The position numbers were made by a program, and so were the translations under genes. DNA of 41,075 nt, taken from the NCBI GenBank assembly GCA_964426075.1, contig CAYROP010000003.1, positions 1 to 41,075 of the forward strand. The letters are read 5' to 3'. The DNA comes from an uncultured Gammaproteobacteria bacterium (lineage in GTDB: Bacteria > Patescibacteriota > Microgenomatia > CAYQLK01). A model generated the notes under the pieces. That model saw nothing but the letters and a program-made list of their open reading frames with translations, was not told the origin of the DNA and did not search any database. This document shows positions 169-39,693 of this stretch, in pieces (the stretch's first letter is position 1; each line of letters opens with the position of its first letter).

Positions 169-360
169 TTAGGTTTGTCGTGGACAGCCGAGCAGATGGT
201 GAGTCGTGCTTTGGCAGGTGGGGCAGGGGTCGTTAGGACGACCGCCTTTTGCGTACTTTTTGCGATTTTCCTCTTTCTGCGCGTAGAGTTTGCCGAGAGC
301 AGCAAAGAGTGGATCGAGCAAAGCTTCGTCATCAGATGACTCTTTGGACTGCGTCGGCAT
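169..360 (-). CDS. small CCHC zinc-knuckle protein, paralog 3 of 3
   Basis: C-terminus CPTCQSTTHHLLGC fits CX2CX5HX3C, as in the two upstream ORFs. AQKEENRKK resembles AQMRENHKR of ORF 553-765. A terminator follows directly. The start is ambiguous (ATG 360 or TTG 429). Confidence 0.5.
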   Translation of the reverse strand: MPTQSKESSDDEALLDPLFAALGKLYAQKEENRKKYAKGGRPNDPCPTCQSTTHHLLGCPRQT

Positions 361-368
361 TTGGACTT

Positions 369-560
369 TTAGGTATCCATCGCCAAACAGTCCTGGGTGT
401 GCCAGAAGCAGCCGCCGCAGGCTTTGCAAGCCGAGCCACGGATGAGGCGAGTGCCGATACGGATGCCGAGATCGGTTGTTCTAGTGGGCTGAGGAGGTGG
501 CGGGGGTGTTGAGCTGCCGTTGATTGGGGTCATGATGGACTTGTGCTCCTTTTTACTCAT
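369..560 (-). CDS. small CCHC zinc-knuckle protein, paralog 2 of 3
   Basis: C-terminus CKACGGCFWHTQDC fits CX2CX5HX3C. The ATG overlaps the stop of the upstream ORF by 8 nt (ATGAGTAA), which suggests translational coupling. Confidence 0.5.
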   Translation of the reverse strand: MSKKEHKSIMTPINGSSTPPPPPQPTRTTDLGIRIGTRLIRGSACKACGGCFWHTQDCLAMDT

Positions 561-765
561 CGTATTTGCAGTCGGATGGATGGTAGTAACTCTGCCCGCA
601 TGACGGACAGGGAATGATTTTGTCTACTTCTCCTCGGTCCAGTCGCTTGTGGTTTTCGCGCATTTGAGCGTTGACTCGGTCGCGCTCGACGATGTGGTGA
701 GCCGCTGCAGGCGACACAGTGAGGTTTTGGAATGGGCTCGGTGGCTGATTGCCGAATAGGCTCAT
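553..765 (-). CDS. small CCHC zinc-knuckle protein, paralog 1 of 3
   Basis: AGGAG SD (776-780, minus strand) lies 10 nt before ATG 765. C-terminus CPSCGQSYYHPSDC fits CX2CX5HX3C. Confidence 0.6.
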   Translation of the reverse strand: MSLFGNQPPSPFQNLTVSPAAAHHIVERDRVNAQMRENHKRLDRGEVDKIIPCPSCGQSYYHPSDCKYDE

Positions 766-799
766 GTCTAAAAGACTCCTAATGTTAAGTTACTGGTTA

Positions 800-808
800 A
801 TTATATCA
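800..808 (-). promoter_or_regulatory. extended -10 promoter (TGATATAAT) for the minus-strand operon
   Basis: The reverse complement of ATTATATCA is TGnTATAAT. It lies back to back with the first plus-strand cassette promoter. Confidence 0.45.
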
Positions 809-826
809 TTTTTCGACAAATATAGG

Positions 827-865
827 CCCGTAGTAATTGATTTTAATGCTTAAATATTGTATAAT
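827..865 (+). promoter_or_regulatory. cassette promoter module type I (box CCCGTAGTAA + TTGATT-N17-TATAAT)
   Basis: Box at 827-836, -35 at 837-842, 17-nt spacer, -10 at 860-865. Confidence 0.6.
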
Positions 866-897
866 TTTGGGTTAGTACCCTAAAACGGAGGATTAGC

Positions 898-1164
898 TTG
901 CCCGATAATGATCCCGTCGTCTACTATGTAATCAAGCATTGCGGCGACTGCGACATGATCACTTTCCATGGTACTGCTGAAAAGCGTGACAAGGAAACGA
1001 ATGAGTGGAAGGCCAGATTCTCTGCCTCCCGATCTTTTTGGGTCAACGACTCGGGCCAAATGCCGTTGTCCGAAGCCATCGAATGGTACGAGGACTACTT
1101 CCCGAAGTACGGTGGCATGAACGACCCGCGAACCGTTGTCGAACAGGCTGTCAGCGCAAGCTAA
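898..1164 (+). CDS. hypothetical small protein, family A (copy 1 of 3)
   Basis: GGAGG SD lies 7 nt before the TTG start. Codons are GC3-rich. It shares VVYY, T-x-E/S-x-RD, LSEAIEWYE and NDPR motifs with ORFs 2099 and 3588. Confidence 0.7.
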   Translation: MPDNDPVVYYVIKHCGDCDMITFHGTAEKRDKETNEWKARFSASRSFWVNDSGQMPLSEAIEWYEDYFPKYGGMNDPRTVVEQAVSAS

Positions 1165-1178
1165 CATCCCCAGAACAT

Positions 1179-1208
1179 ATGCGTCTCTACAAAGAGGCGC
1201 ATTTTTTT
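1179..1208 (+). terminator. intrinsic terminator
   Basis: Stem ATGCGTCTCT, loop ACAA, stem AGAGGCGCAT, then T7. Confidence 0.75.
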
Positions 1209-1218
1209 GTCAAAATAA

Positions 1219-1257
1219 CCTGTAGTAATTGACTTTTGAGGCTAAAAATGGTATAAT
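1219..1257 (+). promoter_or_regulatory. cassette promoter module type I (box CCTGTAGTAA + TTGACT-N17-TATAAT, with TGn)
   Basis: Box at 1219-1228, -35 at 1229-1234, 17-nt spacer ending TGG, -10 at 1252-1257. Confidence 0.65.
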
Positions 1258-1317
1258 CAGGGGTAATAGTGGGGTGTGAAAGCCCTTACTAAATATGCAC
1301 TTTCAAAGAGGTGAAGT

Positions 1318-1842
1318 TTGGTTAAGTCTCTGTTTGTGCGGGCGCTTGGTGCCTACGCCGTCCTGGTCGCCGCGATTGTGGCCTTCCTCTGGTTTACCAG
1401 AGAGAAGATCGTCAGTTTCGATCTCGATTGTCTCGAGCTGGACAACTGGGAACACAGGGGTCGTACCTGGTTCTACACCGAGTTCCAATCTGCTGCCGAC
1501 AAGGCAGGAATCCCCGCAAGGCTCTCCCAGTCGATATACCGTGTCAACATCGGGGAGAAGAACGAGTTCGTCGGTGTCGAGCTACTTGGTTCGGATGCAG
1601 ATCAAGGCAGTCTTGCAGTAAAGGAGATCTTTGTCTCCTATCTCTGCGAGACTGGCTGGGAACAGATTGTTCCGACCAAGCAAGGCTACGGCTCGCATGG
1701 TGAGCGCGAGGTTTGGTATTTCCAGACCGAGCATCTCCTTGCGCTCGGCAACAGTCCGGCGGTGTTCGTCGTCAACTTCGGTCGCAAGCTGAAGCATGTC
1801 GAACCGACGATGCCTACCCGACCCCGCCTCAATTTCGTCTAA
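1318..1842 (+). CDS. hypothetical protein, family C, N-terminal TM helix
   Basis: AGAGGTG SD and TTG start. Motifs TWFYTEFQSAADKA, EIFVSYLCETGWE and VFVVNFG are shared with ORFs 4579 and 2645. Confidence 0.7.
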   Translation: MVKSLFVRALGAYAVLVAAIVAFLWFTREKIVSFDLDCLELDNWEHRGRTWFYTEFQSAADKAGIPARLSQSIYRVNIGEKNEFVGVELLGSDADQGSLAVKEIFVSYLCETGWEQIVPTKQGYGSHGEREVWYFQTEHLLALGNSPAVFVVNFGRKLKHVEPTMPTRPRLNFV

Positions 1843-1865
1843 CTCCAAGACGAACCTCTTTCCTT

Positions 1866-1896
1866 AGCCCTCCCTTAAACAAGGAGGGCTTTTTTT
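1866..1896 (+). terminator. intrinsic terminator
   Basis: Stem AGCCCTCCCTT, loop AAAC, stem AAGGAGGGCT, then T7. Confidence 0.75.
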
Positions 1897-2017
1897 GAGT
1901 CTCGAGACAAACCTACGGTTTTTCTCGAGGCCTCTTGGCAAAGCCAAGTTTTGCAAGCAAAAACGGCCGACTCTTTTCCCTTGGAAACAGAGGCTAGAAT
2001 ACCACCTTTCTTTCTAT

Positions 2018-2058
2018 CCTGTAGTAATCTTGTTTTTTAAGAATAAATAGTGTAGAAT
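2018..2058 (+). promoter_or_regulatory. cassette promoter (box CCTGTAGTAA, then TTGTTT-N17-TAGAAT)
   Basis: Box at 2018-2027, -35-like at 2030-2035, -10 at 2053-2058. Confidence 0.5.
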
Positions 2059-2098
2059 TTCCGCCTCAGCTTTTTGAGGCTTAGGGAGGTTTACGGAA

Positions 2099-2386
2099 AT
2101 GTCCAACATCGATACCGACACCGTGATCCACTACCTGCACACGCAGGAAGCACCCGACTGGTACAAGGTTTCGTTCTTCCGCACAGCGTCGGAGCGTGAC
2201 GACCAGGCAGACAAGTGGCGGCTTTCGCACATCAAGTCCGGTTTCGGTCGTCCCGAGACTGGAGAGATCTGCCTCTACCGCGCCATCGAATGGCACGAGA
2301 ACGAGCACTGCCCCAACTGCGTGGTCGACGACCCAAGGTCGTTGTTCCCGAGTTCGTACCCGACTCGTGAGCTGGCATATGCGTAG
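2099..2386 (+). CDS. hypothetical small protein, family A (copy 2 of 3)
   Basis: GGGAGG SD and ATG start. Motifs VIHY, FFRTASERD, YRAIEWHE and DDPR align with ORFs 898 and 3588. Confidence 0.7.
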   Translation: MSNIDTDTVIHYLHTQEAPDWYKVSFFRTASERDDQADKWRLSHIKSGFGRPETGEICLYRAIEWHENEHCPNCVVDDPRSLFPSSYPTRELAYA

Positions 2387-2421
2387 GTCTGCCTAAGGCC
2401 TCGTATCAACAAGTCCGCATC

Positions 2422-2452
2422 GCCCTCTGTAGAATTACAGGGGGCTTTTTTT
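2422..2452 (+). terminator. intrinsic terminator
   Basis: Stem GCCCTCTGT, loop AGAATT, stem ACAGGGGGC, then T7. Confidence 0.75.
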
Positions 2453-2568
2453 GGGTTTCAGTTTTTTAATCTTATAATTACTCGCCAAAACTTTTTCAAA
2501 AACTGCCTCCGACATTTTTGTGCAATATTTTGGCTACGTCTTGCAGAATAGTTTGTTTAACAAACTAT

Positions 2569-2606
2569 CCTGTAGTATTTACTTCTGAAGCTAAATGTGA
2601 TAAGAT
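2569..2606 (+). promoter_or_regulatory. cassette promoter module type I, degenerate (box CCTGTAGTAT, TTTACT-N17-TAAGAT with TGn)
   Basis: Box at 2569-2578. The spacer CTTCTGAAGCTAAATG resembles the spacer of the 1219 module. -10 at 2601-2606. Confidence 0.5.
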
Positions 2607-2644
2607 GGCTGCCAGAACTTTAACGAGATAAGGAGCCCAAGTTT

Positions 2645-3106
2645 GTGGCTGTTGTTATTGACATCCCGTTCTCTCAGCTTCGTGACCTTAATTGGTCCGA
2701 GCTGGAGTTGGATGAACTACAAAGGGTCTTTTCGGAGGCCTGCGACGAACTCCTCAAGCCTCACGGTTTGAGAGTCAGGACTACTTTTGTCCGTCACCCA
2801 ATGGGAGACGGGGACAAGTGGTTCATGGCGGTTCATTTCGCCAACGAAACCGAACGCAAGAGTGCTCTCCTTCGGGAGATGTCGTTTTTCTACCTCAACG
2901 ATCGTGGTATGGAGGACAAGCTCGAGTGGATTCCAGCTCGACGCGCTGACCTTAAGTCTGCTGCTCCGTCGATGGTGTCAACCTTTTCGTATGGACGGCT
3001 CGCCAGAATCAGTGGCCAGATCTTGTTTCTTCGGCTCGACTTCGGTCCGGAGATCAAGTACGGCCTTCGTGAGGGCAAGCGCGGTACTGCTCTCCAGTCC
3101 TTGTAG
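2645..3106 (+). CDS. hypothetical protein, family C
   Basis: AAGGAG SD and GTG start. EMSFFYLNDRGMEDKLEWIP and ILFLRLDFGPE align with ORFs 1318 and 4579. Confidence 0.7.
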   Translation: MAVVIDIPFSQLRDLNWSELELDELQRVFSEACDELLKPHGLRVRTTFVRHPMGDGDKWFMAVHFANETERKSALLREMSFFYLNDRGMEDKLEWIPARRADLKSAAPSMVSTFSYGRLARISGQILFLRLDFGPEIKYGLREGKRGTALQSL

Positions 3107-3129
3107 ATCACCAGAACCAAGGAGTACGG

Positions 3130-3465
3130 ATGACCTTCAGTTTCGAGAGGGATGCGACTAAAATCGCAAAGCCCAAGAAGAAGGCCAAAAGCCAGAAGCG
3201 GCCCTGTTATCACTGCGTACGCTTGACGGCGCGGATTCAGGAGCTGTTCGACGGTCGCAAGGTTCACTTGTGTGGTCGGTGCTGGGCGGAGAATTTTACC
3301 GAACAGCAGAAGACGCGCATTATCAGTGCGAGCGAAGCCCGCGAGACCATCGCTTCTCGTAGCCGTGAACATGCTCGTTTCGGTAATCACGGACTGCAAA
3401 GTGTTCGTGGTTCACGGCCGCATATAGTGTCTGGCGGTTTGCCTTCCTTGGGCAAGCGCCGCTAA
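3130..3465 (+). CDS. basic zinc-ribbon protein (CYHC...CGRC), second gene of a bicistronic cassette
   Basis: AAGGAG SD lies 5 nt before the ATG. Lys-rich N-terminus KIAKPKKKAKSQKRP, then CxxC-N17-CxxC. No terminator separates it from ORF 2645. Confidence 0.65.
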   Translation: MTFSFERDATKIAKPKKKAKSQKRPCYHCVRLTARIQELFDGRKVHLCGRCWAENFTEQQKTRIISASEARETIASRSREHARFGNHGLQSVRGSRPHIVSGGLPSLGKRR

Positions 3466-3481
3466 AGGCTCTTTTTCCTTT

Positions 3482-3518
3482 GCCTCCTCAAAACCAATAG
3501 GTTAGAGGGGGCTTTTTT
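3482..3518 (+). terminator. intrinsic terminator
   Basis: Stem GCCTCCTC, 15-nt loop, stem GAGGGGGC, then T6. Confidence 0.6.
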
Positions 3519-3524
3519 ATTAGT

Positions 3525-3553
3525 TTGATATTTGGTTTGAGGAGGAATAGAAT
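3525..3553 (+). promoter_or_regulatory. cassette promoter TTGATA-N17-TAGAAT (no box)
   Basis: -35 at 3525-3530, -10 at 3548-3553. Confidence 0.5.
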
Positions 3554-3587
3554 ACTCTGTCTAGAACATTGACGAGGAGAGATTTAG

Positions 3588-3875
3588 TTGGCTGAGTCTA
3601 ACCCAATGGTGTATTACTACACCACGATCATTACTGGAAAGGGTCATTCGACGACCTTTTTCGCAACGCCAGAGGAGCGTGATGAAGCCGCTTCTGATTT
3701 CCGCAACCGTTATTTCATGTCGTCGGCGGCTTCGGTTTCGGCCGAGAGTGAGATGGTGTTGTCCGAAGCGGTTCGGTGGTACGAGAAACATCGTGGCGAT
3801 GACGAGAACATGAACGACCCTCGAGCTCTGTTCTCTGACTGCAAACTCCGGGAGGCGGTTGTCTCCGGAGCCTGA
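3588..3875 (+). CDS. hypothetical small protein, family A (copy 3 of 3)
   Basis: GAGGAG SD and TTG start. Motifs MVYYY, FFATPEERD, LSEAVRWYE and NDPR. Confidence 0.7.
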   Translation: MAESNPMVYYYTTIITGKGHSTTFFATPEERDEAASDFRNRYFMSSAASVSAESEMVLSEAVRWYEKHRGDDENMNDPRALFSDCKLREAVVSGA

Positions 3876-3892
3876 AAAGGCGAACTCAATAT

Positions 3893-3925
3893 AGGCACTT
3901 ACACTAGTTGTAGGTGCCTTTTTTT
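3893..3925 (+). terminator. intrinsic terminator
   Basis: Stem AGGCAC ... GTGCCT with a 15-nt loop, then T7. Confidence 0.6.
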
Positions 3926-3937
3926 ATTTGAAAAAGT

Positions 3938-3966
3938 TTGCAAAAATTATCCTAGAGTAATAAAAT
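3938..3966 (+). promoter_or_regulatory. cassette promoter module type II (TTGCAA-N17-TAAAAT, box CCTAGAGTAA in the spacer)
   Basis: -35 at 3938-3943, box at 3951-3960, -10 at 3961-3966. Confidence 0.5.
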
Positions 3967-4007
3967 AGACTTTCAGATTTTGATTTAACAAAACAGAGGA
4001 AAGGATC

Positions 4008-4460
4008 GTGTCTTTGTTCAAGGACATAGTAGTTAGTCTGAAGCCGTGGGTGGTGTTTACTAACGCACGGTATCAGTTCGGACGCGAGCTCGATATTTCT
4101 GGATTGGAGGAATGGATAAGGGATGCATTCTGGTGGCAGAGCCCTGAGATTGTTTGGAGTATTGCTACCACCTCTGATTCGGTAACAATCGAAGTTCCGA
4201 AAACCTGGCTTTCGATTCGGCTTAGGCCGGTGATCGCTAGTTTTGGAGATGATCGATTTTGTCTGATCGACGGCTATGTTGTCGAGGACAGAATGTTCCG
4301 TTTTCGGCTTCCGCAAGGCAAGCAACTCGAACGAATCGCTAACCTTGAAGAACCAGAGATGAGGTTGCGATTTGTCGAGGACCAACACGCCATGGTAATT
4401 CCGGAGTTGATGGCAAGATTGCCAAAGATTTCGGAAGCCGAACCTGGGCACCCATATTAA
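4008..4460 (+). CDS. hypothetical protein (150 aa, Trp-rich, beta-type pattern)
   Basis: GAGGAAAGGA SD and GTG start. Codons are GC3-rich. The terminator overlaps the stop codon. Confidence 0.6.
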   Translation: MSLFKDIVVSLKPWVVFTNARYQFGRELDISGLEEWIRDAFWWQSPEIVWSIATTSDSVTIEVPKTWLSIRLRPVIASFGDDRFCLIDGYVVEDRMFRFRLPQGKQLERIANLEEPEMRLRFVEDQHAMVIPELMARLPKISEAEPGHPY

Positions 4461-4480
4461 ACTGTGGGTGCCTTTTTTTT
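4446..4480 (+). terminator. intrinsic terminator
   Basis: Stem GGCACCCA ... TGGGTGCC, then T8. Confidence 0.75.
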
Positions 4481-4505
4481 GATTACCTAGGTTTGAGCAA
4501 ATTAT

Positions 4506-4544
4506 CCCGTAGTGTTTGATTTGTGCTTAAAAAAATAATATAAT
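4506..4544 (+). promoter_or_regulatory. cassette promoter module type I (box CCCGTAGTGT + TTGATT-N17-TATAAT)
   Basis: Box at 4506-4515, -35 at 4516-4521, -10 at 4539-4544. Confidence 0.6.
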
Positions 4545-4578
4545 TACCGCTTGAACTTTAAGTGGCGAGGGTAAAAGT

Positions 4579-5142
4579 TTGACTGTCTTGGTTACGGTCC
4601 CATTGGGTGATCGTGAGCTTGGCTGGGGGTACGCGGACCGTGTATGGTTCTCGGACAAATTCCGCCAAGCGGCTCGGGAAGCTGATGTCGAGGTCATGCT
4701 TGCACGAGATCTTTTTCAGCCCGTGGTAGGTACCGATAGCGAGTACCTTCACATCAAGTTCGCCCATTTTTACGGCGAAAGATCCTTTCCCATCGTTGAG
4801 CGGCTGTTTATCAGCTACACCGACGAAGAGGGGGTTGAGCGGAAGCTTTTTCCCCGAGTTGCGGATCGAGATCATGGATCCGGTCATCACGCTATTTCGT
4901 GGGTTTTTTCTACAAAAGACCTGCACAGAGCTGGTGGGCGATTCAACAAGTTCGTCGTCGACTTTGGAGACGAGCTGTGCTTTGTTCCGGTTTCCAAAAG
5001 GATGCCGAGGCCGAGCAAGTTCAAGCTTCTGATTGTCGGCTTTGTTGCTGCCGTCGTTTCTCTTCTTTTCACTGAGAGGGTCAAGAAGCGTTCGGGAAAA
5101 GGCAAGAGCAGGCAAAATGTTCGGACTGTGAAGGACGAGTGA
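4579..5142 (+). CDS. hypothetical protein, family C, C-terminal TM anchor and basic tail
   Basis: TTG start. RVWFSDKFRQAAREA, RLFISYTDEEGVE and KFVVDFGDE align with ORF 1318. The TM segment is FKLLIVGFVAAVVSLLF. Confidence 0.7.
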   Translation: MTVLVTVPLGDRELGWGYADRVWFSDKFRQAAREADVEVMLARDLFQPVVGTDSEYLHIKFAHFYGERSFPIVERLFISYTDEEGVERKLFPRVADRDHGSGHHAISWVFSTKDLHRAGGRFNKFVVDFGDELCFVPVSKRMPRPSKFKLLIVGFVAAVVSLLFTERVKKRSGKGKSRQNVRTVKDE

Positions 5143-5168
5143 TGTTTATTAGCAGCTGAAAAACTAAC

Positions 5169-5205
5169 GGCACTCCTAGATTTTATTTAGGGGTGCCTTT
5201 TTTTT
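5169..5205 (+). terminator. intrinsic terminator
   Basis: Stem GGCACTCCTA ... TAGGGGTGCC, then T8. Confidence 0.75.
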
Positions 5206-5212
5206 AACTCTA

Positions 5213-5241
5213 TTGTAATAAATGACCTAGAGTATTAGAAT
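5213..5241 (+). promoter_or_regulatory. cassette promoter module type II (TTGTAA-N17-TAGAAT, box CCTAGAGTAT)
   Basis: The 16-mer CCTAGAGTATTAGAAT (5226-5241) is identical to 6313-6328. Confidence 0.55.
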
Positions 5242-5301
5242 TCTTTTAATTCTGGTCGGTTATATCCTATTCCAATAGGAAGAAAGAAGAAGGTTAGGAG
5301 T

Positions 5302-5682
5302 ATGTCAGGCCTAGAGTTTGACATGGATGTCCACGAGCTGTCTGAAGTGTTGGAGAGCGGAGACGATCTGGTGTTTTGGTTGAACTTGAGGTTTGACCAC
5401 AACAATCGGTATCTTGCAGCCAGAGGTGTGGTTGGGGGACAAGTGACACTTGTTCCTGATCCAATAAACCATGGCAAACGGAAGCTGACTTTTGCGTTTC
5501 CGAGGCTCAACAAGTCGATTTTTCGACTGTCACTCGAGTCTTCTCGCAAGAACACATCAGTTCAGGCCAACTATCGTTTCGTCGACGGGACCGATAAGCC
5601 GTTCCGGTTCTCATTCGACTGGGATGAGTTTGTTACCGCACTGCAACCAGACGCTGTTTTGCGATTCAAGCTTCATCCATGA
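5302..5682 (+). CDS. hypothetical protein (126 aa, beta-type pattern)
   Basis: Purine-rich SD region, ATG start, GC3-rich codons, own terminator. Confidence 0.6.
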   Translation: MSGLEFDMDVHELSEVLESGDDLVFWLNLRFDHNNRYLAARGVVGGQVTLVPDPINHGKRKLTFAFPRLNKSIFRLSLESSRKNTSVQANYRFVDGTDKPFRFSFDWDEFVTALQPDAVLRFKLHP

Positions 5683-5704
5683 TCGGAGCAAGAATGGCTA
5701 GATC

Positions 5705-5733
5705 GCCCCCGAGTAATATCGGGGGCTTTTTTT
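5705..5733 (+). terminator. intrinsic terminator
   Basis: Stem GCCCCCGA, loop GTAATA, stem TCGGGGGC, then T7. Confidence 0.8.
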
Positions 5734-5741
5734 GAGGTTTT

Positions 5742-5770
5742 TTGGTGTACAATAATTGACTAAGTAGAGT
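5742..5770 (+). promoter_or_regulatory. possible cassette promoter TTGGTG-N17-TAGAGT
   Basis: Weak match. The alternative is -10 TACAAT at 5748-5753. The sequence CTAAGTAGAGT is box-like. Confidence 0.3.
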
Positions 5771-5794
5771 TGCGGATCAAAAAACTTTGGTGGG

Positions 5795-6220
5795 TTGGTG
5801 ATGTATCTTCAGGTCATGACTCACTCGTTCGAGCGAGCATTTGTCGAGGGAGAGTTCGAGCTTCGTGGTAAGCTTGTTGAGAGCTTGCTTGCGGGTCATC
5901 TCAACAAAACATTAAGGCGTTCTGGTCTTTATGTCGTTGGGTGTTGTTTTGACAACTCTGACGCTGTTGAACAGTTAACGCTGACTATCCTTGACTGTGA
6001 AGGTCGAGGCGTAAAAATGTCAGAGGCTAAACTGGTCTTTGATGTCGACCCAAACAAGCCGTTTTTTGCGGTGCTAGGTAGGAAGGTTGGATGCGGAATT
6101 TACCAATTCCACATTATGCCTTATCACCAGCCATCTGTTCAAAACTTTTGCAGGCTCGTTTTTGAGTTTGTGCTTCCCGAATCAAGCGAGGCATTAAATG
6201 AGATGGGCGAGCCAAAGTAA
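5795..6220 (+). CDS. hypothetical protein (about 140 aa)
   Basis: TTG 5795, GVG-adjacent GTG 5798 and ATG 5801 are consecutive possible starts, with a weak SD. Codons are GC3-rich and the ORF has its own terminator. Confidence 0.5.
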   Translation: MVMYLQVMTHSFERAFVEGEFELRGKLVESLLAGHLNKTLRRSGLYVVGCCFDNSDAVEQLTLTILDCEGRGVKMSEAKLVFDVDPNKPFFAVLGRKVGCGIYQFHIMPYHQPSVQNFCRLVFEFVLPESSEALNEMGEPK

Positions 6221-6260
6221 TGGTTGTAGCATAATCAAAAATGCTTCGGCTAGTCACATA

Positions 6261-6292
6261 AGACACCTTTTGAGGAAGAGGTGTCTTTTTTT
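6261..6292 (+). terminator. intrinsic terminator
   Basis: Stem AGACACCT ... AGGTGTCT with a 10-nt loop, then T7. Confidence 0.75.
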
Positions 6293-6299
6293 CATCTTA

Positions 6300-6328
6300 T
6301 AGACAAATTAGGCCTAGAGTATTAGAAT
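6300..6328 (+). promoter_or_regulatory. cassette promoter module type II (TAGACA-N17-TAGAAT, box CCTAGAGTAT)
   Basis: Box at 6313-6322, -10 at 6323-6328. Confidence 0.55.
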
Positions 6329-6367
6329 TGCATTCAGCACATTTGCAAAAAAAGCGAGGAATATCTG

Positions 6368-6997
6368 ATGACAAATCGGATCGAGGAACTCAGGTTCCCC
6401 GTGTCTGGGTCTGCCTTGGATAGCTTCCGAAGGGCAGCGAACAACACGAACGAATGGTCAGGAATCTTCGGTAAGATTCTGACTGCGCCATCGGCGGTTT
6501 GGGGACGGAATCAGCCTGCACCTCAGATCTGGGCGCTTATCCGTGTTGACCGGATCAGGAACGATTATCGGCTCCTGTTTCGATTCGTTAACGCGGCCAC
6601 TGGCGATGATCTCCATCTGCAAGGCATCGTCATCGAACACGGACCTTCGAGGGTGGCTGTGCCGATGGTCCATACCAGCATGGCATCGATGGTTGCCGCC
6701 AAAGGCATGTACGGCGTGCGGGGTGAAACCCGTATGCATCATGGGTTTGCGGTAAGCAGTCTTCGGGGTGTTTTTCCGCAGGCTCGCAACCTCGTCGTCA
6801 AGCTCGAAATGCCTTCCGGTGTAACCAGTCCAGTTATTGGTGTTCCGGAGGTGACAGAACCGACGAGCGTAAGCGAGTTCGGCCAGTTTCGCGCGGCAAG
6901 CTCGTCCCGCTTTACCGAAGAGAGGGATTTCCCGCGGAGGGGTACGTTTTCGTACGACCCCCGTCTGGATGGACCCCGACGAGTTTTTCGAAGTTAA
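6368..6997 (+). CDS. hypothetical protein (209 aa), N-terminal ELRF motif
   Basis: GAGGA SD and ATG start. The N-terminus IEELRFPVS...NEW resembles ORF 7630 (VELRFDLS...ANW). Confidence 0.6.
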   Translation: MTNRIEELRFPVSGSALDSFRRAANNTNEWSGIFGKILTAPSAVWGRNQPAPQIWALIRVDRIRNDYRLLFRFVNAATGDDLHLQGIVIEHGPSRVAVPMVHTSMASMVAAKGMYGVRGETRMHHGFAVSSLRGVFPQARNLVVKLEMPSGVTSPVIGVPEVTEPTSVSEFGQFRAASSSRFTEERDFPRRGTFSYDPRLDGPRRVFRS

Positions 6998-7040
6998 CCT
7001 CGAAGAAAACGACTGCAGTTAATGTAGTCACAAGCCTTAT

Positions 7041-7074
7041 GGGCGTCTCTGTAATAAGAGGCGCCCTTTTTTTT
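7041..7074 (+). terminator. intrinsic terminator
   Basis: Stem GGGCGTCTCT, loop GTAATA, stem AGAGGCGCCC, then T8. The stem core matches the terminator at 1179. Confidence 0.8.
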
Positions 7075-7096
7075 ATAAATTTTCTAATGTATTTAT

Positions 7097-7134
7097 CCTG
7101 TAGTATTGGATTTTTATGGATAGACTAGTATAAT
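7097..7134 (+). promoter_or_regulatory. cassette promoter module type I (box CCTGTAGTAT + TTGGAT-N17-TATAAT)
   Basis: Box at 7097-7106, -35 at 7106-7111, -10 at 7129-7134. Confidence 0.6.
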
Positions 7135-7186
7135 TTGCTCCAGCTCGTTAACAGACCATCAATACCAAAGAAATGGGGAATGCGAG

Positions 7187-7624
7187 ATGTCTGAGATTTT
7201 GTCCTTCAGGGCGACTTTCGACCAGCAAGCCAGGTTGAAGCTCGAGAAGGAGCCATTTGCCAATTGGCCGACGATCCTTTGGGATGTCGTGGCTGACGGC
7301 AGACAATTAAGGCATTTTCGTGCCAAGAACTTGACGATTTCGGTCGTCTACAAGCTGTTCTTTCCCTATCGCAAGTGGCTGGTTTTCATGGCCACGAACG
7401 AACAAAATCCTACTGCTGTTCCTGCTGAAATCACAGGGCTTGAGATCCATACTGATCACGCCAATGTTCCTGTGATCAAGTCGAGGGTTTTCCCTGAAGG
7501 GATTGCTGGTGGTGAGGCGTTTGTGGGCTTACGATATTTCGACGCGGTCGATATCAGGGACCAGATCAAGCAACTCACTGGCATCTACTTCACCGTTCGG
7601 GTCCCTGAAACTGTGGAGGCCTAA
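7187..7624 (+). CDS. hypothetical protein, first gene of a 3-gene cassette
   Basis: ATG start and GC3-rich codons. The PFANWP motif parallels LANW and KTWP in the next two ORFs. Confidence 0.6.
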   Translation: MSEILSFRATFDQQARLKLEKEPFANWPTILWDVVADGRQLRHFRAKNLTISVVYKLFFPYRKWLVFMATNEQNPTAVPAEITGLEIHTDHANVPVIKSRVFPEGIAGGEAFVGLRYFDAVDIRDQIKQLTGIYFTVRVPETVEA

Positions 7625-7629
7625 ACAAG

Positions 7630-8061
7630 ATGGAGAGTGTTGAGCTAAGGTTCGATCTCTCGCCTTGGGCTGAGATGTATATCTCCGGCCGAGGTTTGGC
7701 CAACTGGGTCATCGATCTTGAGAACCATCTTGGCGCTCTGCCAACTCTCAAGGAGGGTAGTATCCACGAGGTGTTTTTGCGGGAGTGTATTTTTGCCGGG
7801 GTCAGAAGTGATCTTAAAGCAAAAGACGGTCCTGCTATAGACTTTCGATTCATGCGAGATGGGACAACGGCACAAGTCGGTGTTCAATCGCTTGTATTGG
7901 AAGGTAACGGTTCGCAACCAGAACCCCTTGAAGCGAAAGAGCGGTGGTCGGCTGATTTTCGACAGACGGTTTGGCGATTTGGCCAGGTCGAGTTCGAAGA
8001 AAGAATGGCCAAAGGCAGCAAGACGCTGGTATTGGCTGTTTATCCATTGCAGGGCAAGTAA
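7630..8061 (+). CDS. hypothetical protein, second gene of the 3-gene cassette
   Basis: A GGAGG SD sits inside the end of the previous ORF, 10 nt before the ATG. No terminator lies in between. Confidence 0.6.
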   Translation: MESVELRFDLSPWAEMYISGRGLANWVIDLENHLGALPTLKEGSIHEVFLRECIFAGVRSDLKAKDGPAIDFRFMRDGTTAQVGVQSLVLEGNGSQPEPLEAKERWSADFRQTVWRFGQVEFEERMAKGSKTLVLAVYPLQGK

Positions 8062-8094
8062 GTGCTCTGTTTCAGGTGAGTAAAGGAGGCTGTT

Positions 8095-8553
8095 CTGAAG
8101 CGGTCGTTCGAGATTCCTCTTGCGTCTTGGAAATATTCTTGGACGCGTAAGCCAGTTAAGACTTGGCCCATGGTCATAGCTCAGCTGGTCGACATGTCGG
8201 AGGATACCCAACAGGCATTGGAGGGGATAATGCTCGAAATTATTCCTGCCAACATTGTTGGTCAGGGCGCGGTTTGCTTTGGTTTTGTTCGGACCTCAAA
8301 AACCCGAAAAGCCAAAGTTCGTGTCTATTTCGAGACGGATACGGAAGACACCGGAGTATTCGAAGGTGTTTCTTCCTCTGGAATCGACGGATCTGGTACG
8401 GGAAACCGTATTTTTTTCCTTCGGGAATTGGAGCGGGTTCTGCCGATTGCCAACAAACTCGTTATCGAAGTCGATGACGGGAATGGCGACTCTGCGCCAC
8501 GAAGAAGTTTGTGGCGGCGGATAAATCTTGGTTTCGGGGGTAGAGATAGGTAG
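8095..8553 (+). CDS. hypothetical protein, third gene of the cassette; proposed CTG start (the track calls ATG 8170)
   Basis: The frame is open from 8080. A perfect AAGGAGG (8083-8089) lies 5 nt before CTG 8095, while ATG 8170 has no SD. The added N-terminus SFEIPLASW...KTWP matches the N-termini of the paralogs. Confidence 0.5.
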   Translation: MKRSFEIPLASWKYSWTRKPVKTWPMVIAQLVDMSEDTQQALEGIMLEIIPANIVGQGAVCFGFVRTSKTRKAKVRVYFETDTEDTGVFEGVSSSGIDGSGTGNRIFFLRELERVLPIANKLVIEVDDGNGDSAPRRSLWRRINLGFGGRDR

Positions 8554-8566
8554 TCTGGTCTGACAT

Positions 8567-8598
8567 GGGCGCTCTTTAAAAAGAGCGCCTTTTTTTTT
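8567..8598 (+). terminator. intrinsic terminator closing the island
   Basis: Stem GGCGCTCTT, loop TAAA, stem AAGAGCGCC, then T9. Confidence 0.8.
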
Positions 8599-8653
8599 AA
8601 GCAATTGGAGAGATTTGCTTGCCTGTAAATATTAATATGGTTAATATAAAAGT

Positions 8654-11119: not shown

Positions 11120-12268
11120 ATGATACCTTTGGCAGCTAAGATTCGACCTTCTGATTTGAGTGGATTTGTTGGTCAAAATCATTTAGTAGGACAAGGTAAA
11201 CCAATTCGGGTTGCGATTGATAAGAAACATTTATTTTCATTTGTTTTATGGGGACCTCCTGGTGTGGGTAAGACCACTTTGGCAAGAATTTATGCTAACT
11301 CTCTTGGGGCTGAAATGTATGAGTTGTCAGCAGTTTCGGCAGGTAAAGAGGATATTCGTAAAATAATTGGCAAAGATAACCTTCAGGAGTCACTAGCACC
11401 TAAGGTTTTGTTCTTAGATGAGATTCATAGGTTTAATAAAAGCCAGCAAGATTTTTTGTTGCCATTTGTGGAGAGTGGAAAATTAACACTAATTGGGGCA
11501 ACAACTGAAAATCCAAGTTTTGAAGTAATTCCGGCGTTATTGTCTAGGTGTCGGGTTTTTGTATTGAATGCTTTATCAGAAAAGGAAATGAACGAAATTA
11601 TTGACCGCACTGGTATAGAGATTGATTTAGAAGCTCGAAAATGGCTAATTGCAATGGCGGACGGTGATGGGAGGCAGGCGATCACAATGCTGGAAAATAC
11701 TCAGAATTTGTATAAAAAAATAACAATTGAGAATCTTAAGAAGGCATTACAAAACAAGTTTTTGCGTTACGACAAAGCTGGTGAAGAACATTACAACACA
11801 ATTAGTGCGTTTATCAAAAGTATGCGGGCAGGTGATGCTGATGCTGCAATCTATTATCTTGCGCGGATGATCGACGCTGGGGAGGATCCTAAATTTATTG
11901 CTCGCCGAATGGTTATTTTTGCTTCAGAGGATGTGGGACTAGCTGTACCAACAGCGTTAGTTGTAGCAAATGAAGTTTTTCGAGCAGTTGAAACTATTGG
12001 TTATCCTGAATGTTCAATTAACCTTGTACACGGGGTAGCTTATTTGGCTAATTGTAAAAAAGATAGGAGTGCATATGATGCCTTGCAGGAGGCTCTGGTT
12101 GATGTAAAAAAATTAGGAAACTTGCCAATACCTCTTAAAGTTAGAAACGCGCCAACGAAGCTTATGAAAGACATTGGCTACGGAAAGGGATATGAAATGT
12201 ACGGAAAGGAATCGCTGTTGCCTGACGAATTAAAAGGAAAGAAATATTTGAAGAAAAAGAAGGATTAG
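11120..12268 (+). CDS. rarA: replication-associated recombination protein A (MgsA/RarA AAA+ ATPase)
   Basis: Walker A GPPGVGKTTLARI, Walker B LFLDEIHRF, and the C-terminal AAIYYLARMIDAGEDP. Confidence 0.9.
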   Translation: MIPLAAKIRPSDLSGFVGQNHLVGQGKPIRVAIDKKHLFSFVLWGPPGVGKTTLARIYANSLGAEMYELSAVSAGKEDIRKIIGKDNLQESLAPKVLFLDEIHRFNKSQQDFLLPFVESGKLTLIGATTENPSFEVIPALLSRCRVFVLNALSEKEMNEIIDRTGIEIDLEARKWLIAMADGDGRQAITMLENTQNLYKKITIENLKKALQNKFLRYDKAGEEHYNTISAFIKSMRAGDADAAIYYLARMIDAGEDPKFIARRMVIFASEDVGLAVPTALVVANEVFRAVETIGYPECSINLVHGVAYLANCKKDRSAYDALQEALVDVKKLGNLPIPLKVRNAPTKLMKDIGYGKGYEMYGKESLLPDELKGKKYLKKKKD

Positions 12269-29762: not shown

Positions 29763-29846
29763 GCCGGGGTGGCGGAATTGGTAGACGCGCACGTCTCAAA
29801 CACGTGTGAAAGCAATTTCATGTGGGTTCAAGTCCCACTCCCGGCA
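29763..29846 (+). tRNA. tRNA-Leu (anticodon CAA), class II with long variable arm
   Basis: Manual cloverleaf: acceptor GCCGGGG/TCCCGGC, anticodon stem CACGT/ACGTG with loop CTCAAAC, variable arm TGAAAGCAATTTCAT, T-arm GTGGG-TTCAAGT-CCCAC, discriminator A. No encoded CCA. Confidence 0.93.
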
Positions 29847-29955
29847 CAGTTTTTTAATTCCAAAAATTCAATTTAAACAATCATATCGACAGTTATAGGC
29901 TATTGTAGTAGTATTTGTGGCTAGCACTTTAAGCAAAGGAAGGGTGAAACAACTA

Positions 29956-30789
29956 ATGCCTGTACTTCTGAACGAAGGCAAGGACAGGATCATCGTTGCG
30001 CTCGACACTCAAGACGTTGTCGAAGTTTCCCGCTGGGTTCGACTGCTTGCTCCCCATGTAGGGATGTTCAAAGCAGGGTTCGAGCTGACCAACGCGGTCG
30101 GAACTCAGAGGGCTTTGAGAGCAATCAAAGTCGGCGGTGGACAGGATTTCGCGGATGTCAAATTCCACGATATCTCTGAAACTGTCAGCAAGGCAGTTTC
30201 TGCGGTGGCGGGCTTTGGCCCGCACTTCGTGAATATGCATATTCAGTCAGGCGACGAGGCAATGCAGAAGGCAGTTGCGAAAAAAGGCAACAGCCTGCTG
30301 CTGGGAGTGTCGGTTCTGACCTCGCTTACCCCTCAAGAGATTCTTGAGATGTTTGTTGGGCCGTTTATCGCAATGACTGGTCATGACTACGAGTATGGCC
30401 AGGCTATGGCGATCGACAGCCCGGATGTAGAGCTGGCAGATCACGCAAGGGAACTCGCGGCTGAGTACATGAACAGGTTGGTCTTGGGTTTTGCTGAGAA
30501 GGCGGCCCGGAATGGCCTCGACGGTATCATTTGCTCGCCAATGGAACTTCGGTACCTCAAAGAGCACGGTTCTGAGGCGGTATGCAACCTTATCAAGGTT
30601 GTTCCCGGTATTCGTATGCCGGACAACAGCGTCGATGATCAAAAAAGGGTGGGAACACCCTACCAAACGATTAAGGATGGGGCTGACTACCTTGTGATCG
30701 GGCGACCGATTCTCAAGGCGGAAGATCCCGTTCGAGCAGCAAAAGCGATTGCGTCAGAGATCGATCGCGCGCTTGACGACATGGACTAA
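29956..30789 (+). CDS. pyrF: orotidine 5'-phosphate decarboxylase
   Basis: FADVKFHDISET fits the OMP-decarboxylase signature D-x-K-x-x-D-I-x-x-T, and IIVALD is present. ATG 29956 has a GGAAGGG SD, while the track start GTG 29917 has none. Confidence 0.8.
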   Translation: MPVLLNEGKDRIIVALDTQDVVEVSRWVRLLAPHVGMFKAGFELTNAVGTQRALRAIKVGGGQDFADVKFHDISETVSKAVSAVAGFGPHFVNMHIQSGDEAMQKAVAKKGNSLLLGVSVLTSLTPQEILEMFVGPFIAMTGHDYEYGQAMAIDSPDVELADHARELAAEYMNRLVLGFAEKAARNGLDGIICSPMELRYLKEHGSEAVCNLIKVVPGIRMPDNSVDDQKRVGTPYQTIKDGADYLVIGRPILKAEDPVRAAKAIASEIDRALDDMD

Positions 30790-30813
30790 ATCGAGGAGGT
30801 TGGCTTAGAAATA

Positions 30814-31473: not shown

Positions 31474-31505
31474 ATCAAAAGAAAGCGAGGTAAGGTGTCG
31501 AAAGA

Positions 31506-39189: not shown

Positions 39190-39415
39190 GGAAAAATTTA
39201 GCTACAAATTGAAGCTAAAATGTTACTTCGTCATTACCTATTAATTAGACCTATAGTATATTCATTTTTTTGATTAACAAACATAAAATCTAGTGTTAAA
39301 CGATCGTTGTTCTTACAAAAAACTTAAATTCGGTGGCAAAAATAAATTAGTAGAGGAGTAATAAAAAAGAGGAATTAGGTTCAAGAGTAGAGCAAAATGA
39401 TATAGTTTGATACAG

Positions 39416-39494: not shown

Positions 39495-39693
39495 CTTGTT
39501 TTCGGTTATAAGGTTTTTGGGAGTAGGTATTAATATTTATATTGCCAATACAATACGATATTATTTACTCTTTTAGCTTTGAATGAATGAAAAAAGACTA
39601 TTGTAATAAGCTAAATAGCGACGTAAATATTTATATTATAGGGTCATTTTAGGCTTAAAAAAGTTGAGGTAGCGGTAGTGAGAAAGGAGTAAG

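What the first reader, a model, noticed from the sequence alone, without database searches (positions are those of the whole stretch)
827..7134. Conserved 10-nt box CCYRKAGTAW at nearly every cassette promoter, in two module architectures
Seen: the box occurs as CCCGTAGTAA (827), CCTGTAGTAA (1219), CCTGTAGTAA (2018), CCTGTAGTAT (2569), CCTAGAGTAA (3951), CCCGTAGTGT (4506), CCTAGAGTAT (5226), CCTAGAGTAT (6313) and CCTGTAGTAT (7097). Weaker orphan copies are TCTGTAGTTA at 21-30 and CCTATAGTAT at 39250-39259, neither with an obvious downstream ORF.

In type I modules the box is fused directly to a -35 hexamer, then N17, then TATAAT (827, 1219, 4506, 7097; 2569 is degenerate). These also share spacer similarity of the form TTTnRRGCTWAAA. 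In type II modules the box forms the spacer immediately upstream of a -10 TAGAAT or TAAAAT (3951, 5226, 6313). The 16-mer CCTAGAGTATTAGAAT is identical at 5226 and 6313.

The distance from box to -10 is about 33 nt in type I and about 10 nt in type II. The box keeps its sequence while its promoter position shifts by about 23 nt, which is unexpected for a plain sigma-contact element.

Inference: it could be a shared operator that allows coordinated control of the whole array. It could instead be a cassette-boundary sequence left by the mechanism that builds the array.
Basis: partly seen in the sequence, partly recalled or inferred. Interest (0 to 1): 0.7.

Follow-up and report, generated by a model that had tools for sequence, protein, structure and literature searches.

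The report
Conserved promoter box of ORFan array
A 10-bp sequence (CCYnnAGTRW) sits in the promoters of most genes of a GC-rich array of small unknown genes in an uncultured, apparently small-genome bacterium; its five core bases are unchanged across five related species while neighbouring bases drift, so it is most likely the docking site of a dedicated regulator of the array, which makes it a real but fairly ordinary kind of control element.

Summary
CCYRKAGTAW occurs 10 times in the window against 0.62 expected. Eight copies lie in array promoters, all on the + strand, and a ninth (4506) differs at one base.

Syntenic arrays in four further species-level relatives carry the same box at orthologous promoters (43 instances over the five species). 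The core bases C1, C2, A6, G7 and T8 are invariant. The adjacent sigma70-type hexamer shows 0.77 pairwise identity and the other intergenic positions about 0.47.

The box is array-specific. It lies upstream of 33 of 53 promoter-like sites in arrays but only 3 of 40 in flanking housekeeping DNA. Those 3 are one orthologous small-RNA promoter.

Its distance to the -10 falls into two classes, 27-36 nt and 9-13 nt, so it is not a fixed-register RNA polymerase contact. Strain-level cassette gain/loss and an inversion use terminator or -35 microhomology, not the box. No recombinase lies next to the array. The cassette-boundary idea is therefore not supported.

Best reading, at moderate confidence: an operator for an unidentified array-specific transcription factor, more probably a repressor. 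Candidate binders are a conserved divergent zinc-knuckle protein and the 3130-3465 zinc ribbon; neither was tested, and there are no family or fold matches. This is a new member of a known kind, of moderate interest.

The parts
766..8600 (+). Array of 14 small ORFan genes in 11 transcription units. Most genes have their own sigma70-like promoter, Shine-Dalgarno sequence and intrinsic terminator. GC is about 49%, against about 37% for the rest of the window.
   Evidence: no Pfam, PHROG or PADLOC hits; paralogue families
827..865 (+). Type I module of gene 898-1164: box CCCGTAGTAA 827-836, -35 TTGATT 837-842, -10 TATAAT 860-865. The box also covers about -43 to -34 of the divergent minus-strand promoter.
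   Evidence: conserved in 5 species
1219..1257 (+). Type I module of gene 1318-1842: box CCTGTAGTAA, -35 TTGACT 1229-1234, -10 TATAAT 1252-1257
2018..2058 (+). Type I module of gene 2099-2386 with the box 2 nt upstream of the -35: box CCTGTAGTAA, -35 TTGTTT 2030-2035, -10 TAGAAT 2053-2058
   Evidence: orthologues L001 9919 and L009 1910 keep the 2-3 nt offset
2569..2606 (+). Type I module of operon 2645-3465: box CCTGTAGTAT, -35 TTTACT 2578-2583, -10 TAAGAT 2601-2606. It is preceded by hairpin 2546-2567, which abuts the box.
3938..3966 (+). Type II module of gene 4008-4460: -35 TTGCAA 3938-3943, box CCTAGAGTAA 3951-3960 in the spacer, -10 TAAAAT 3961-3966
4506..4544 (+). Type I module of gene 4579-5142: box CCCGTAGTGT, -35 TTGATT 4516-4521, -10 TATAAT 4539-4544
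5213..5241 (+). Type II module of gene 5302-5682: -35 TTGTAA, box CCTAGAGTAT 5226-5235, -10 TAGAAT 5236-5241
6300..6328 (+). Type II module of gene 6368-6997: -35 TAGACA, box CCTAGAGTAT 6313-6322, -10 TAGAAT 6323-6328
   Evidence: the whole block is conserved in 5 species
7097..7134 (+). Type I module of the three-gene operon 7187-8553: box CCTGTAGTAT, -35 TTGGAT 7106-7111 (shares the last T of the box), -10 TATAAT 7129-7134
3525..3553 (+). Promoter of gene 3588-3875 without a box (TTGATA-N17-TAGAAT). Possibly related promoters in L005 and L009 carry CCTCTAGTAA.
169..808 (-). Divergent left-end operon of three paralogous small CX2CX5HX3C zinc-knuckle proteins (765-553, 560-369, 429-169). Its extended -10 promoter TGATATAAT lies at 808-800 and its terminator at 160-141. 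The 63-aa protein is conserved beside the first box in all five species and is a candidate regulator by inference only.
   Evidence: no family or structure match
3130..3465 (+). It is conserved (75-86% identity) but restricted to this lineage, and its function is unknown.
39250..39259 (+). Orphan exact box CCTATAGTAT in a 1-kb AT-rich non-coding region, with no convincing promoter partner. Status uncertain.

Best explanation
The box (core CCYnnAGT, full form CCYRKAGTRW, often preceded by an A/T-rich flank ending in TA) is the operator of a sequence-specific DNA-binding protein. That protein controls the whole ORFan array, the divergent zinc-knuckle operon at the array's left end, and at least one small-RNA gene outside the array, as a single regulon.

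In every case the site lies inside the footprint RNA polymerase would occupy at the predicted promoter. It either abuts the upstream edge of the -35 hexamer (about -45 to -36) or fills the spacer up to the -10 hexamer (about -22 to -13). The promoters themselves are near-consensus sigma70 promoters. The simplest mechanism is therefore steric repression of intrinsically strong promoters, lifted by some signal.

A dual role is also possible: class-II-like activation from about -41 and repression from the spacer.

Shown here: the element exists, it is under strong purifying selection, it is array-specific and its register is flexible. Inferred: that a protein binds it, the sign of the regulation, and the identity of the binder.
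For: - Enrichment: 10 matches against 0.62 expected, and all array copies are co-oriented with the genes.
- Conservation: 43 promoter instances in five species-level relatives. Flanking housekeeping DNA in these relatives is 77-82% identical to the window. Core columns have pairwise identity 1.00 (30 of 30 columns), against 0.77 for the adjacent hexamer and 0.46-0.49 for other intergenic columns.
- Divergent paralogues: proteins of paralogous cassettes are only 27-35% identical, yet their promoters keep the box.
- Specificity: 33 of 53 promoter-like sites in arrays carry it, against 3 of 40 in flanking host DNA (Fisher p = 3e-8).
- Regulon beyond the cassettes: those 3 host sites are one orthologous promoter of a small RNA of about 90 nt in L001, L014 and L005.
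- Flexible register: the distance from box to -10 is 9-13 or 27-36 nt, and the box lies 4-5 nt further upstream at the small-RNA promoter. This is typical of operators and not of polymerase contact elements.
- Strong promoters: the box-bearing promoters are near-consensus (TTGACT/TTGATT-N17-TATAAT).
- Shared first box: the first box lies between two divergent promoters at a conserved 26-27 nt from the minus-strand -10 in all five species.
Against: - No binder is identified. No protein in or near the array has a recognisable DNA-binding domain.
- The site is short, asymmetric and present once per promoter, which is unusual for bacterial repressors.
- All 43 array copies have the same orientation. 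In both promoter classes the box starts 9, 10, 12 or 13 nt before the neighbouring hexamer. This hints at a direct geometric relation with sigma rather than simple occlusion.
- There are no transcription start site or expression data.
Confidence: 0.55

Rival explanations
1. The box is a third promoter element read by RNA polymerase itself or by a factor riding on it. The reader could be an alternative sigma factor, an extra sigma domain or a sigma-appropriator-like adaptor. The element would raise or redirect initiation at array promoters rather than serve as an operator for a free transcription factor.
For: Orientation is strictly fixed relative to transcription in all 43 array promoters. The box always abuts or nearly abuts the upstream edge of a core hexamer. 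The offsets from box start to hexamer start are 9, 10, 12 and 13 nt at the -35 (with 4 nt in L005 and L009), and 9, 10, 12 and 13 nt at the -10. The box is more conserved than the hexamers.
Against: Distance to the -10 varies from 9 to 36 nt, with two modes 23 nt apart. Known polymerase contact elements (UP element, extended -10, -35) have fixed registers. None of the 18 promoter-like sites in the window's 32 kb of host DNA carries the box. No sigma factor or appropriator homologue is found in the window.
Confidence: 0.15
2. The box is a recombination site or scar that marks cassette boundaries. It would have been left by, or be used by, the mechanism that gains, loses or shuffles cassettes.
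For: Arrays in different species and strains differ by whole cassettes. One strain-level inversion/deletion junction (L002-L004 against L001) lies 2-5 nt 3' of a box. Direct repeats of box plus promoter could support homologous deletion.
Against: The partner breakpoint of that junction has no box; the shared sequence is ATTG(G)ATT of two -35 regions. The cleanest strain-level cassette indel (L009 against L013 and L011) has both breakpoints in similar terminators (cagggggcttttttt), 10-40 nt from the box. In type II promoters the box is inside the promoter, downstream of the -35. All array copies are direct repeats. The only recombinase gene is a Xer-like one 32 kb away. The box also occurs at a small-RNA promoter outside the array. 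Invariance of the core across 5 species while the flanks decay indicates a function still in use.
Confidence: 0.07
3. The box has no function of its own. It is inherited from serial duplication of one ancestral promoter and kept similar by gene conversion among promoters.
For: Several cassettes are paralogous, and type I promoters share more than the box (family D2).
Against: Paralogous proteins have diverged to 27-35% identity while the box core is invariant. Non-paralogous cassettes and two different promoter architectures carry it. The core columns are invariant in orthologous promoters of 5 species, whereas flanking columns are about 47% identical. Gene conversion would homogenise the flanks too.
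Confidence: 0.05

Closest known systems
Operators of dedicated repressors on strong promoters (for example phage immunity operators such as lambda OR, or island-specific regulon boxes)
   Same: A short conserved site overlaps the polymerase footprint at many near-consensus promoters of one co-located gene set. One site is shared by a divergent promoter pair whose other arm encodes small putative regulators. The position within the promoter is flexible.
   Different: The site is asymmetric, about 10 bp long, and present once per promoter in a single orientation. No helix-turn-helix repressor is present and the binder is unknown. The locus is vertically inherited in five species and carries no phage genes.
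Class II activator sites centred near -41.5 (CRP/FNR type), and monomeric asymmetric boxes such as MarA/SoxS marboxes or the phage T4 MotA box
   Same: In type I promoters the box centre is at about -40.5 to -45, abutting the -35. Marboxes and MotA boxes are likewise asymmetric and read by monomers, and marboxes occur in two promoter classes.
   Different: The promoters here already have good -35 hexamers, and the box does not replace the -35 as a MotA box does. The type II position (-22 to -13) is a repressor-type position. No AraC/XylS, MotA or AsiA homologue was detected.
Integron attC sites and gene cassette arrays
   Same: Both are a tandem, co-oriented array of small, mostly unknown genes that varies by whole cassettes between relatives, with a short recurrent sequence between genes.
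   Different: Each gene or operon here has its own promoter and terminator. The box is not an imperfect palindrome and lacks the GTTRRRY core. There is no integrase next to the array. Observed indel breakpoints are not at the box.
Conserved 5' recombination sites of phase-variable surface-gene families in Mycoplasma (vis/vrs sites). This comparison rests on recalled knowledge and was not tested against sequences.
   Same: A conserved short sequence lies upstream of every member of a multigene array.
   Different: Those sites occur in inverted pairs and act with an adjacent recombinase to move one promoter. Here every gene has a promoter, all array copies are direct, and no recombinase is adjacent.

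Membership tests
Transcription-factor operator / regulon box | More conserved than neutral intergenic DNA at orthologous promoters | tested here: met
   Core columns have pairwise identity 1.00, against 0.46-0.49 for other intergenic columns, in 6 promoter groups across 5 species
Transcription-factor operator / regulon box | Confined to a subset of promoters rather than present genome-wide | tested here: met
   33 of 53 array promoter-like sites against 3 of 40 in flanking host DNA, p = 3e-8. Only about 60 kb of host DNA was available, not a whole genome.
Transcription-factor operator / regulon box | Overlaps or abuts the RNA polymerase binding region | tested here: met
   The box lies at about -45 to -36 or -22 to -13 relative to predicted hexamers. 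The promoters are predicted, not mapped.
Transcription-factor operator / regulon box | A cognate DNA-binding protein exists | not testable with these tools
   Candidates only: the 63-aa zinc-knuckle protein (369-560, minus strand) and the zinc ribbon 3130-3465. Neither has a family or fold match.
Sigma70 UP element / extended -10 | Fixed register relative to the -35 or -10; A/T-rich (UP element) or TGn at -15/-14 (extended -10) | tested here: not met
   Distance to the -10 ranges over 9-13 and 27-36 nt. The invariant bases are CC and AGT. The element is absent from host promoters.
Integron attC / cassette array | Adjacent intI integrase and attI site | tested here: not met
   No integrase domain in array ORFs. 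The only tyrosine recombinase is at 40522-end, 32 kb away.
Integron attC / cassette array | An imperfect inverted repeat with a conserved core at each cassette junction; cassettes mostly without promoters | tested here: not met
   The inter-cassette inverted repeats found are intrinsic terminators with T-runs, plus one hairpin at 2546-2567 and the hairpins of the repeated element at 1886-1990. The box is not palindromic. Every unit has its own promoter.
Site-specific recombination site | Structural variants have their breakpoints at the site | tested here: not met
   The L009/L013 indel has breakpoints in terminators. The L001/L002 junction is explained by microhomology between two -35 regions, and its partner breakpoint lacks a box.
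Phage T4 MotA-box middle promoter | An asymmetric box centred at -30 that replaces the -35, with MotA and AsiA proteins present | tested here: not met
   -35 hexamers are present and the box is centred at about -40 or -18. No PHROG hits.
DnaA box / NrdR box (considered because of TTATCC and ATAGTGT resemblances) | TTATCCACA 9-mer (DnaA box); 16-bp palindrome acaCwAtATaTwGtgt, found in tandem (NrdR box) | tested here: not met
   The invariant AGT and the variable 5' flank do not fit a DnaA box, and the window has a canonical DnaA box elsewhere (39486-39494). Most boxes lack a left palindrome arm. The consensus sequences are recalled from the literature.

The most novel reading that the evidence does not exclude
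The box is a register-flexible third promoter element. It would be read by an RNA-polymerase-associated adaptor, for example one of the lineage-restricted small zinc proteins encoded at the array. The adaptor could dock immediately upstream of either core hexamer (-35 or -10). It would thereby switch a horizontally acquired ORFan array and an anti-Shine-Dalgarno-like small RNA on as one unit in a small-genome uncultured bacterium.
Probability: 0.1. Interest if true: 0.7.

Novelty: new member of a known kind. Interest (0 to 1): 0.4.

Why it matters
The literature searches run here found no description of this motif or array, and I know of little published work on gene regulation in uncultured small-genome bacteria of this kind. 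This locus offers a clean, testable regulon:
- a 10-bp element with five invariant bases;
- about ten target promoters per genome;
- a co-regulated small RNA;
- a short list of candidate binders encoded next to the targets.

It also marks the GC-rich ORFan array as one functional unit, maintained in synteny across at least five species. That in turn makes the array's unknown proteins more interesting. One family has a confident predicted fold with no match among solved structures. Beyond this the finding is a conventional cis-regulatory motif.

Tried and rejected
- Phage or mobile-element origin. There are no PHROG, PADLOC or Pfam hits for 14 array proteins. No relatives of the 88-95 aa family were found in IMG/VR. 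The 19 viral hits to CCTAGAGTATTAGAAT are single, chance-like matches.\n- Wider distribution of box plus promoter. A metagenome scan with CCYRKAGTRWTTGAYT-N17-TATAAT gave 97 loci, but only L063 is a related array. The rest have 1-3 copies of the box motif per strand, most of them one; at least one (L048) is phage-like, and several carry tRNA clusters. In viral contigs the pattern (5 hits) is no commoner than a reversed-box control (4 hits). I treat these hits as mostly chance.\n- Recombination breakpoints. I first thought the L002 junction and the L014 'missing cassette' pointed to the box. Closer reading showed -35 microhomology at the junction and paralogous upstream modules of about 100 nt at the missing cassette.\n- Hidden second -10. 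No conserved hexamer lies 17 nt downstream of the type II 'TAGAAT' (reading).\n- Alternative-sigma reading. No conserved partner element lies at a fixed distance from the box.\n- Candidate binders. The AF2 model of the 88-95 aa family (pLDDT 83) is an alpha/beta fold with no helix-turn-helix and no significant PDB match. The AF2 model of the zinc ribbon is weak (pLDDT 65) and has no match. The zinc-knuckle protein has one homologue only.\n- Rfam gave nothing but the tRNA.\n- Literature searches found nothing relevant.\n- The AACTTTAA motif in 5' untranslated regions is not enriched.\n- The near-box after tRNA-Leu (29903, TTGTAGTAG) lacks the invariant CC and is not counted.

Full report
**What the window is.** Positions 1 to about 8600 are 46-52% GC (about 49%), while most of the rest is 33-43% GC. 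The low-GC part is ordinary bacterial chromosome. It encodes ribosomal protein S6, SSB, YchF, RF-1, HisRS, DnaB, EF-P, LspA, RuvC and YebC, and gene 11120-12268 resembles the RuvB_N/AAA/MgsA_C protein called in L001. It also carries a tRNA-Leu and a Xer-like recombinase gene at the far end.

The GC-rich part is a co-oriented array of 14 small ORFs in 11 transcription units. Most units have a sigma70-like promoter, a Shine-Dalgarno sequence and an intrinsic terminator. None of the array proteins matches Pfam, PHROGs or PADLOC. There are two paralogue families: 898/2099/3588, and 1318/4579 with probably 2645. Within them the proteins are only 27-35% identical.

On the minus strand at the left end, an operon encodes three paralogous small proteins. 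Each ends in CX2CX5HX3C.

**The observation.** CCYRKAGTAW has 10 exact matches against 0.62 expected by chance. Eight of these are array promoters, and copy 4506 differs at position 9. An unbiased repeat search and a k-mer count recover the box as the main repeated intergenic sequence apart from terminator T-runs.

Nine of the 11 + strand promoters carry the box. The promoters at 3525-3553 and upstream of gene 5795 do not. The two architectures are real:
- Type I: the box abuts or overlaps by 1 nt, or lies 2 nt upstream of, a -35 hexamer that is followed by N17 and a -10.
- Type II: the box fills the last 10 nt of a 17-nt spacer between a recognisable -35 (TTGCAA, TTGTAA, TAGACA) and a -10 (TAAAAT, TAGAAT).

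The claimed spacer motif holds for only two promoters.

**Comparative evidence.** Homologues of the 88-95 aa family led to syntenic arrays in four further species-level relatives: L001/L012, L005, L009/L013 and L014. The arrays lie upstream of a 537-560 aa protein gene; in three relatives cysS lies upstream of the array (L009's upstream flank is cut off), and a RarA-like (MgsA) gene lies downstream in L001 and probably L014. Flanking housekeeping DNA is 77-82% identical to the window and array DNA is about 72-81% identical. The array is therefore an old, vertically inherited locus and not a recent insertion.

All these arrays carry the box at orthologous promoters. Over 43 instances in the five species, C1, C2, A6 and G7 are invariant and T8 nearly so. 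Positions 3-5 vary (CCYGTAGT, CCTAGAGT, CCYATAGT, CCTCTAGT), even between orthologues.

In six orthologous promoter sets the mean pairwise identities are:
- 1.00 for the five core columns;
- 0.69 for the other box columns;
- 0.77 for the adjacent hexamer;
- 0.46-0.49 for the remaining intergenic columns.

The box core is thus better conserved than the polymerase hexamers, which means it is functional.

**Specificity.** The motif is present at 33 of 53 such sites in arrays and 3 of 40 in flanking host DNA. In the window's own 32 kb of host DNA the count is 0 of 18.

The three host sites are one orthologous promoter in L001, L014 and L005. It drives a GC-rich transcript of about 90 nt, with a conserved CUCUCCCA apical loop, a stem that differs between the three species, and a terminator (in L001 and L014). 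This is probably a small RNA. The box therefore marks a small regulon and not only cassette junctions.

**Geometry.** The distance from box start to -10 start clusters at 32-36 nt (mode 33; 27 nt in two promoters) and at 9-13 nt (mode 10). At the small-RNA promoter the box lies 4-5 nt further upstream of the -35. Such spread is incompatible with a fixed-register polymerase contact (UP element or extended -10). It is normal for operators.

One curious regularity remains. In both classes the box starts 9, 10, 12 or 13 nt before the hexamer it neighbours.

The first box lies between two divergent promoters. It covers about -45 to -36 of the + promoter and about -43 to -34 of the extended -10 promoter of the zinc-knuckle operon. 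Its spacing of 26-27 nt from that promoter's -10 is conserved in all five species (geometry read).

**The recombination idea.** Three strain-level structural variants were examined.
- L009 against L013 and L011: one cassette is present or absent. Both breakpoints lie in nearly identical terminator stems (cagggggcttttttt), upstream of the box.
- L002-L004 against L001: this is an inversion plus deletion whose junction lies just 3' of a box. The partner breakpoint has no box, and the shared sequence is ATTG(G)ATT of two -35 regions. The junction recreates a box-TTGATT-N17-TATAAT promoter.
- L012 against L001: a repeated upstream module of about 100 nt is swapped.

None of these variants uses the box. 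No recombinase gene is in or beside the array. In type II promoters the box is internal to the promoter.

**Breadth.** No viral relatives of the array were found. A metagenome scan for box plus consensus promoter returned 97 loci, of which only one is a related array. The others carry 1-3 copies of the box motif per strand, most of them one; one (L048) is phage-like and several carry tRNA clusters. In viral contigs the pattern is as rare as a reversed-box control, 5 hits against 4. I regard these loci as mostly chance. One phage palindrome among them is recorded separately under things noticed in passing.

**Candidate binders.** Two candidates exist, and neither has been tested.
- The 63-aa zinc-knuckle protein (369-560, minus strand; core LGIRVGTRLIRGxACKACGGxFWHxxxC). 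It is conserved next to the first box in all five species but has essentially no other homologues and no match among solved structures.
- The zinc ribbon 3130-3465. It is conserved but lineage-restricted. Its model is weak (pLDDT 65) and has no fold match.

The 88-95 aa family gives a confident alpha/beta model (pLDDT 83) with no helix-turn-helix. Its best PDB matches are insignificant (E = 0.3, an anti-CRISPR protein and an antitoxin). No binder is identified.

**Mechanism.** The explanation I commit to, with probability about 0.55, is that the box is the operator of an array-specific DNA-binding protein. Repression seems likelier than activation. The promoters are near-consensus and the site always lies within the polymerase footprint, either against the -35 or inside the spacer. 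A dual role (activation from about -41, repression from the spacer) cannot be excluded.

The rivals are:
- a polymerase-associated, register-flexible promoter element (0.15);
- a recombination site or scar (0.07);
- a functionless duplication relic (0.05).

The remaining probability covers mechanisms not considered here.

**Comparison with known systems.** The box works most like a regulon operator on strong promoters, for example phage immunity operators. It also resembles monomeric asymmetric boxes such as marboxes or MotA boxes. It is not a member of any named family:
- integron attC: no integrase, not palindromic, and the cassettes have their own promoters;
- UP element and extended -10: the register is not fixed and the composition is wrong;
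- MotA box: the -35 is present and the position is wrong;
- site-specific recombination sites: the observed breakpoints lie elsewhere;
- DnaA and NrdR boxes: the sequence does not fit.

**Verdict.** This is a real, strongly conserved, array-specific cis-element. Its most likely role is coordinate transcriptional control. It is a new member of a known kind, and its interest is moderate (0.4). Its main value is as a tractable handle on regulation, and on an enigmatic ORFan array, in an uncultured small-genome lineage. The attribution of the lineage to candidate-phyla-radiation-type bacteria is my inference from one relative's 660-kb contig, low GC content and gene content. It was not tested.

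Noticed in passing
window 1886-1990; L001 2355-2459, 3096-3188, 4477-4565; L014 2608-2706: A repeated intergenic element of about 100 nt with three hairpins (ctcgaga...tctcgag, cttggcaaagccaag, ttttgcaagcaaaa) sits just after terminators. Copies are about 94% identical between species whose genes are only 75-82% identical. This suggests a conserved functional element, REP-like or a non-coding RNA.
   Followed up: partly
window 2463-2571; L001 8028-8110, 9723-9821, 10604-10708: A second repeated upstream module of about 100 nt (…ATAATTACTCGCC…CTACGTCTTGCAG) ends in a hairpin of about 9-10 bp that directly abuts the box of two promoters. The module is swapped between strains L012 and L001.
   Followed up: partly
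L001 3868-4003; L014 3417-3563; L005 about 5328-5470: A putative small RNA of about 90 nt is transcribed from a box-bearing promoter outside the array. It has a conserved CUCUCCCA apical loop (anti-Shine-Dalgarno-like) and a stem sequence that differs between the three species; a strong terminator follows in L001 and L014. Folding z-scores are -4.4 and -5.5 in those two species and -1.4 in L005. No Rfam match.
   Followed up: partly
L001 4000-4490; L014 3570-4045: Two more GC-rich, terminator-ended non-coding units follow that small RNA. One is about 120 nt and one is a structured region of about 250 nt. Neither has an Rfam match. The promoter of the first (TTGACActataggtctaatatgaTATACT in L014) contains an inverted box-like sequence that is not conserved in L001.
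   Followed up: no
window 29917-31790: A second GC-rich block (47-52% GC) lies immediately after tRNA-Leu (29763-29847). It encodes an OMP decarboxylase, a phosphoribosyltransferase and a 94-aa multi-CxxC zinc-ribbon protein, and is probably a separate horizontal acquisition. Its promoter has a box-like TTGTAGTAG that lacks the invariant CC.
   Followed up: partly
window 39190-40170: A 1-kb AT-rich non-coding region contains a perfect DnaA box (TGTGGATAA, 39486-39494), a 34-nt perfect palindrome (40092-40125) that includes TTTGAGGCTAAA, and the orphan box at 39250. It lies next to a Xer-like recombinase gene (40522-end). It may be a replication origin or dif-type region.
   Followed up: no
window 169-765 (minus strand): Three tandem, translationally coupled small ORFs (70, 63 and 86 aa) are paralogous in a C-terminal CX2CX5HX3C zinc knuckle. 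The family appears restricted to this lineage.
   Followed up: partly
window 898-6220: Seven of the 14 array genes start with TTG or GTG rather than ATG. This is an unusually high share for genes that have strong promoters and Shine-Dalgarno sequences.
   Followed up: no
L001 5200-8000; L002 5800-8000; L005 7294-8859; L006/L007: The segment between cysS and the array is variable between relatives. It holds defence-type genes (AIPR, KAP NTPase) in L002 and L005-L008 and a HMA/MauE gene in L001; a DndB-like gene lies further upstream in L002. The array therefore borders a variable hotspot.
   Followed up: no
L048 1270-1300; L052; L079 (metagenome phage contigs): A 17-bp palindrome ACACTAT-CCC-ATAGTGA lies between two divergent -35 hexamers in a large tRNA-rich phage. 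Several other chance-level hits also have an ACTAT left arm. In a few array promoters (for example window 2569) the box likewise forms the right half of an imperfect ACTAT-CCY-RTAGT dyad.
   Followed up: partly
window 898-1164, 2099-2386, 3588-3875: The 88-95 aa paralogue family gives a confident AlphaFold model (pLDDT 83, beta-beta-alpha-beta-alpha) with no significant match among solved structures.
   Followed up: yes
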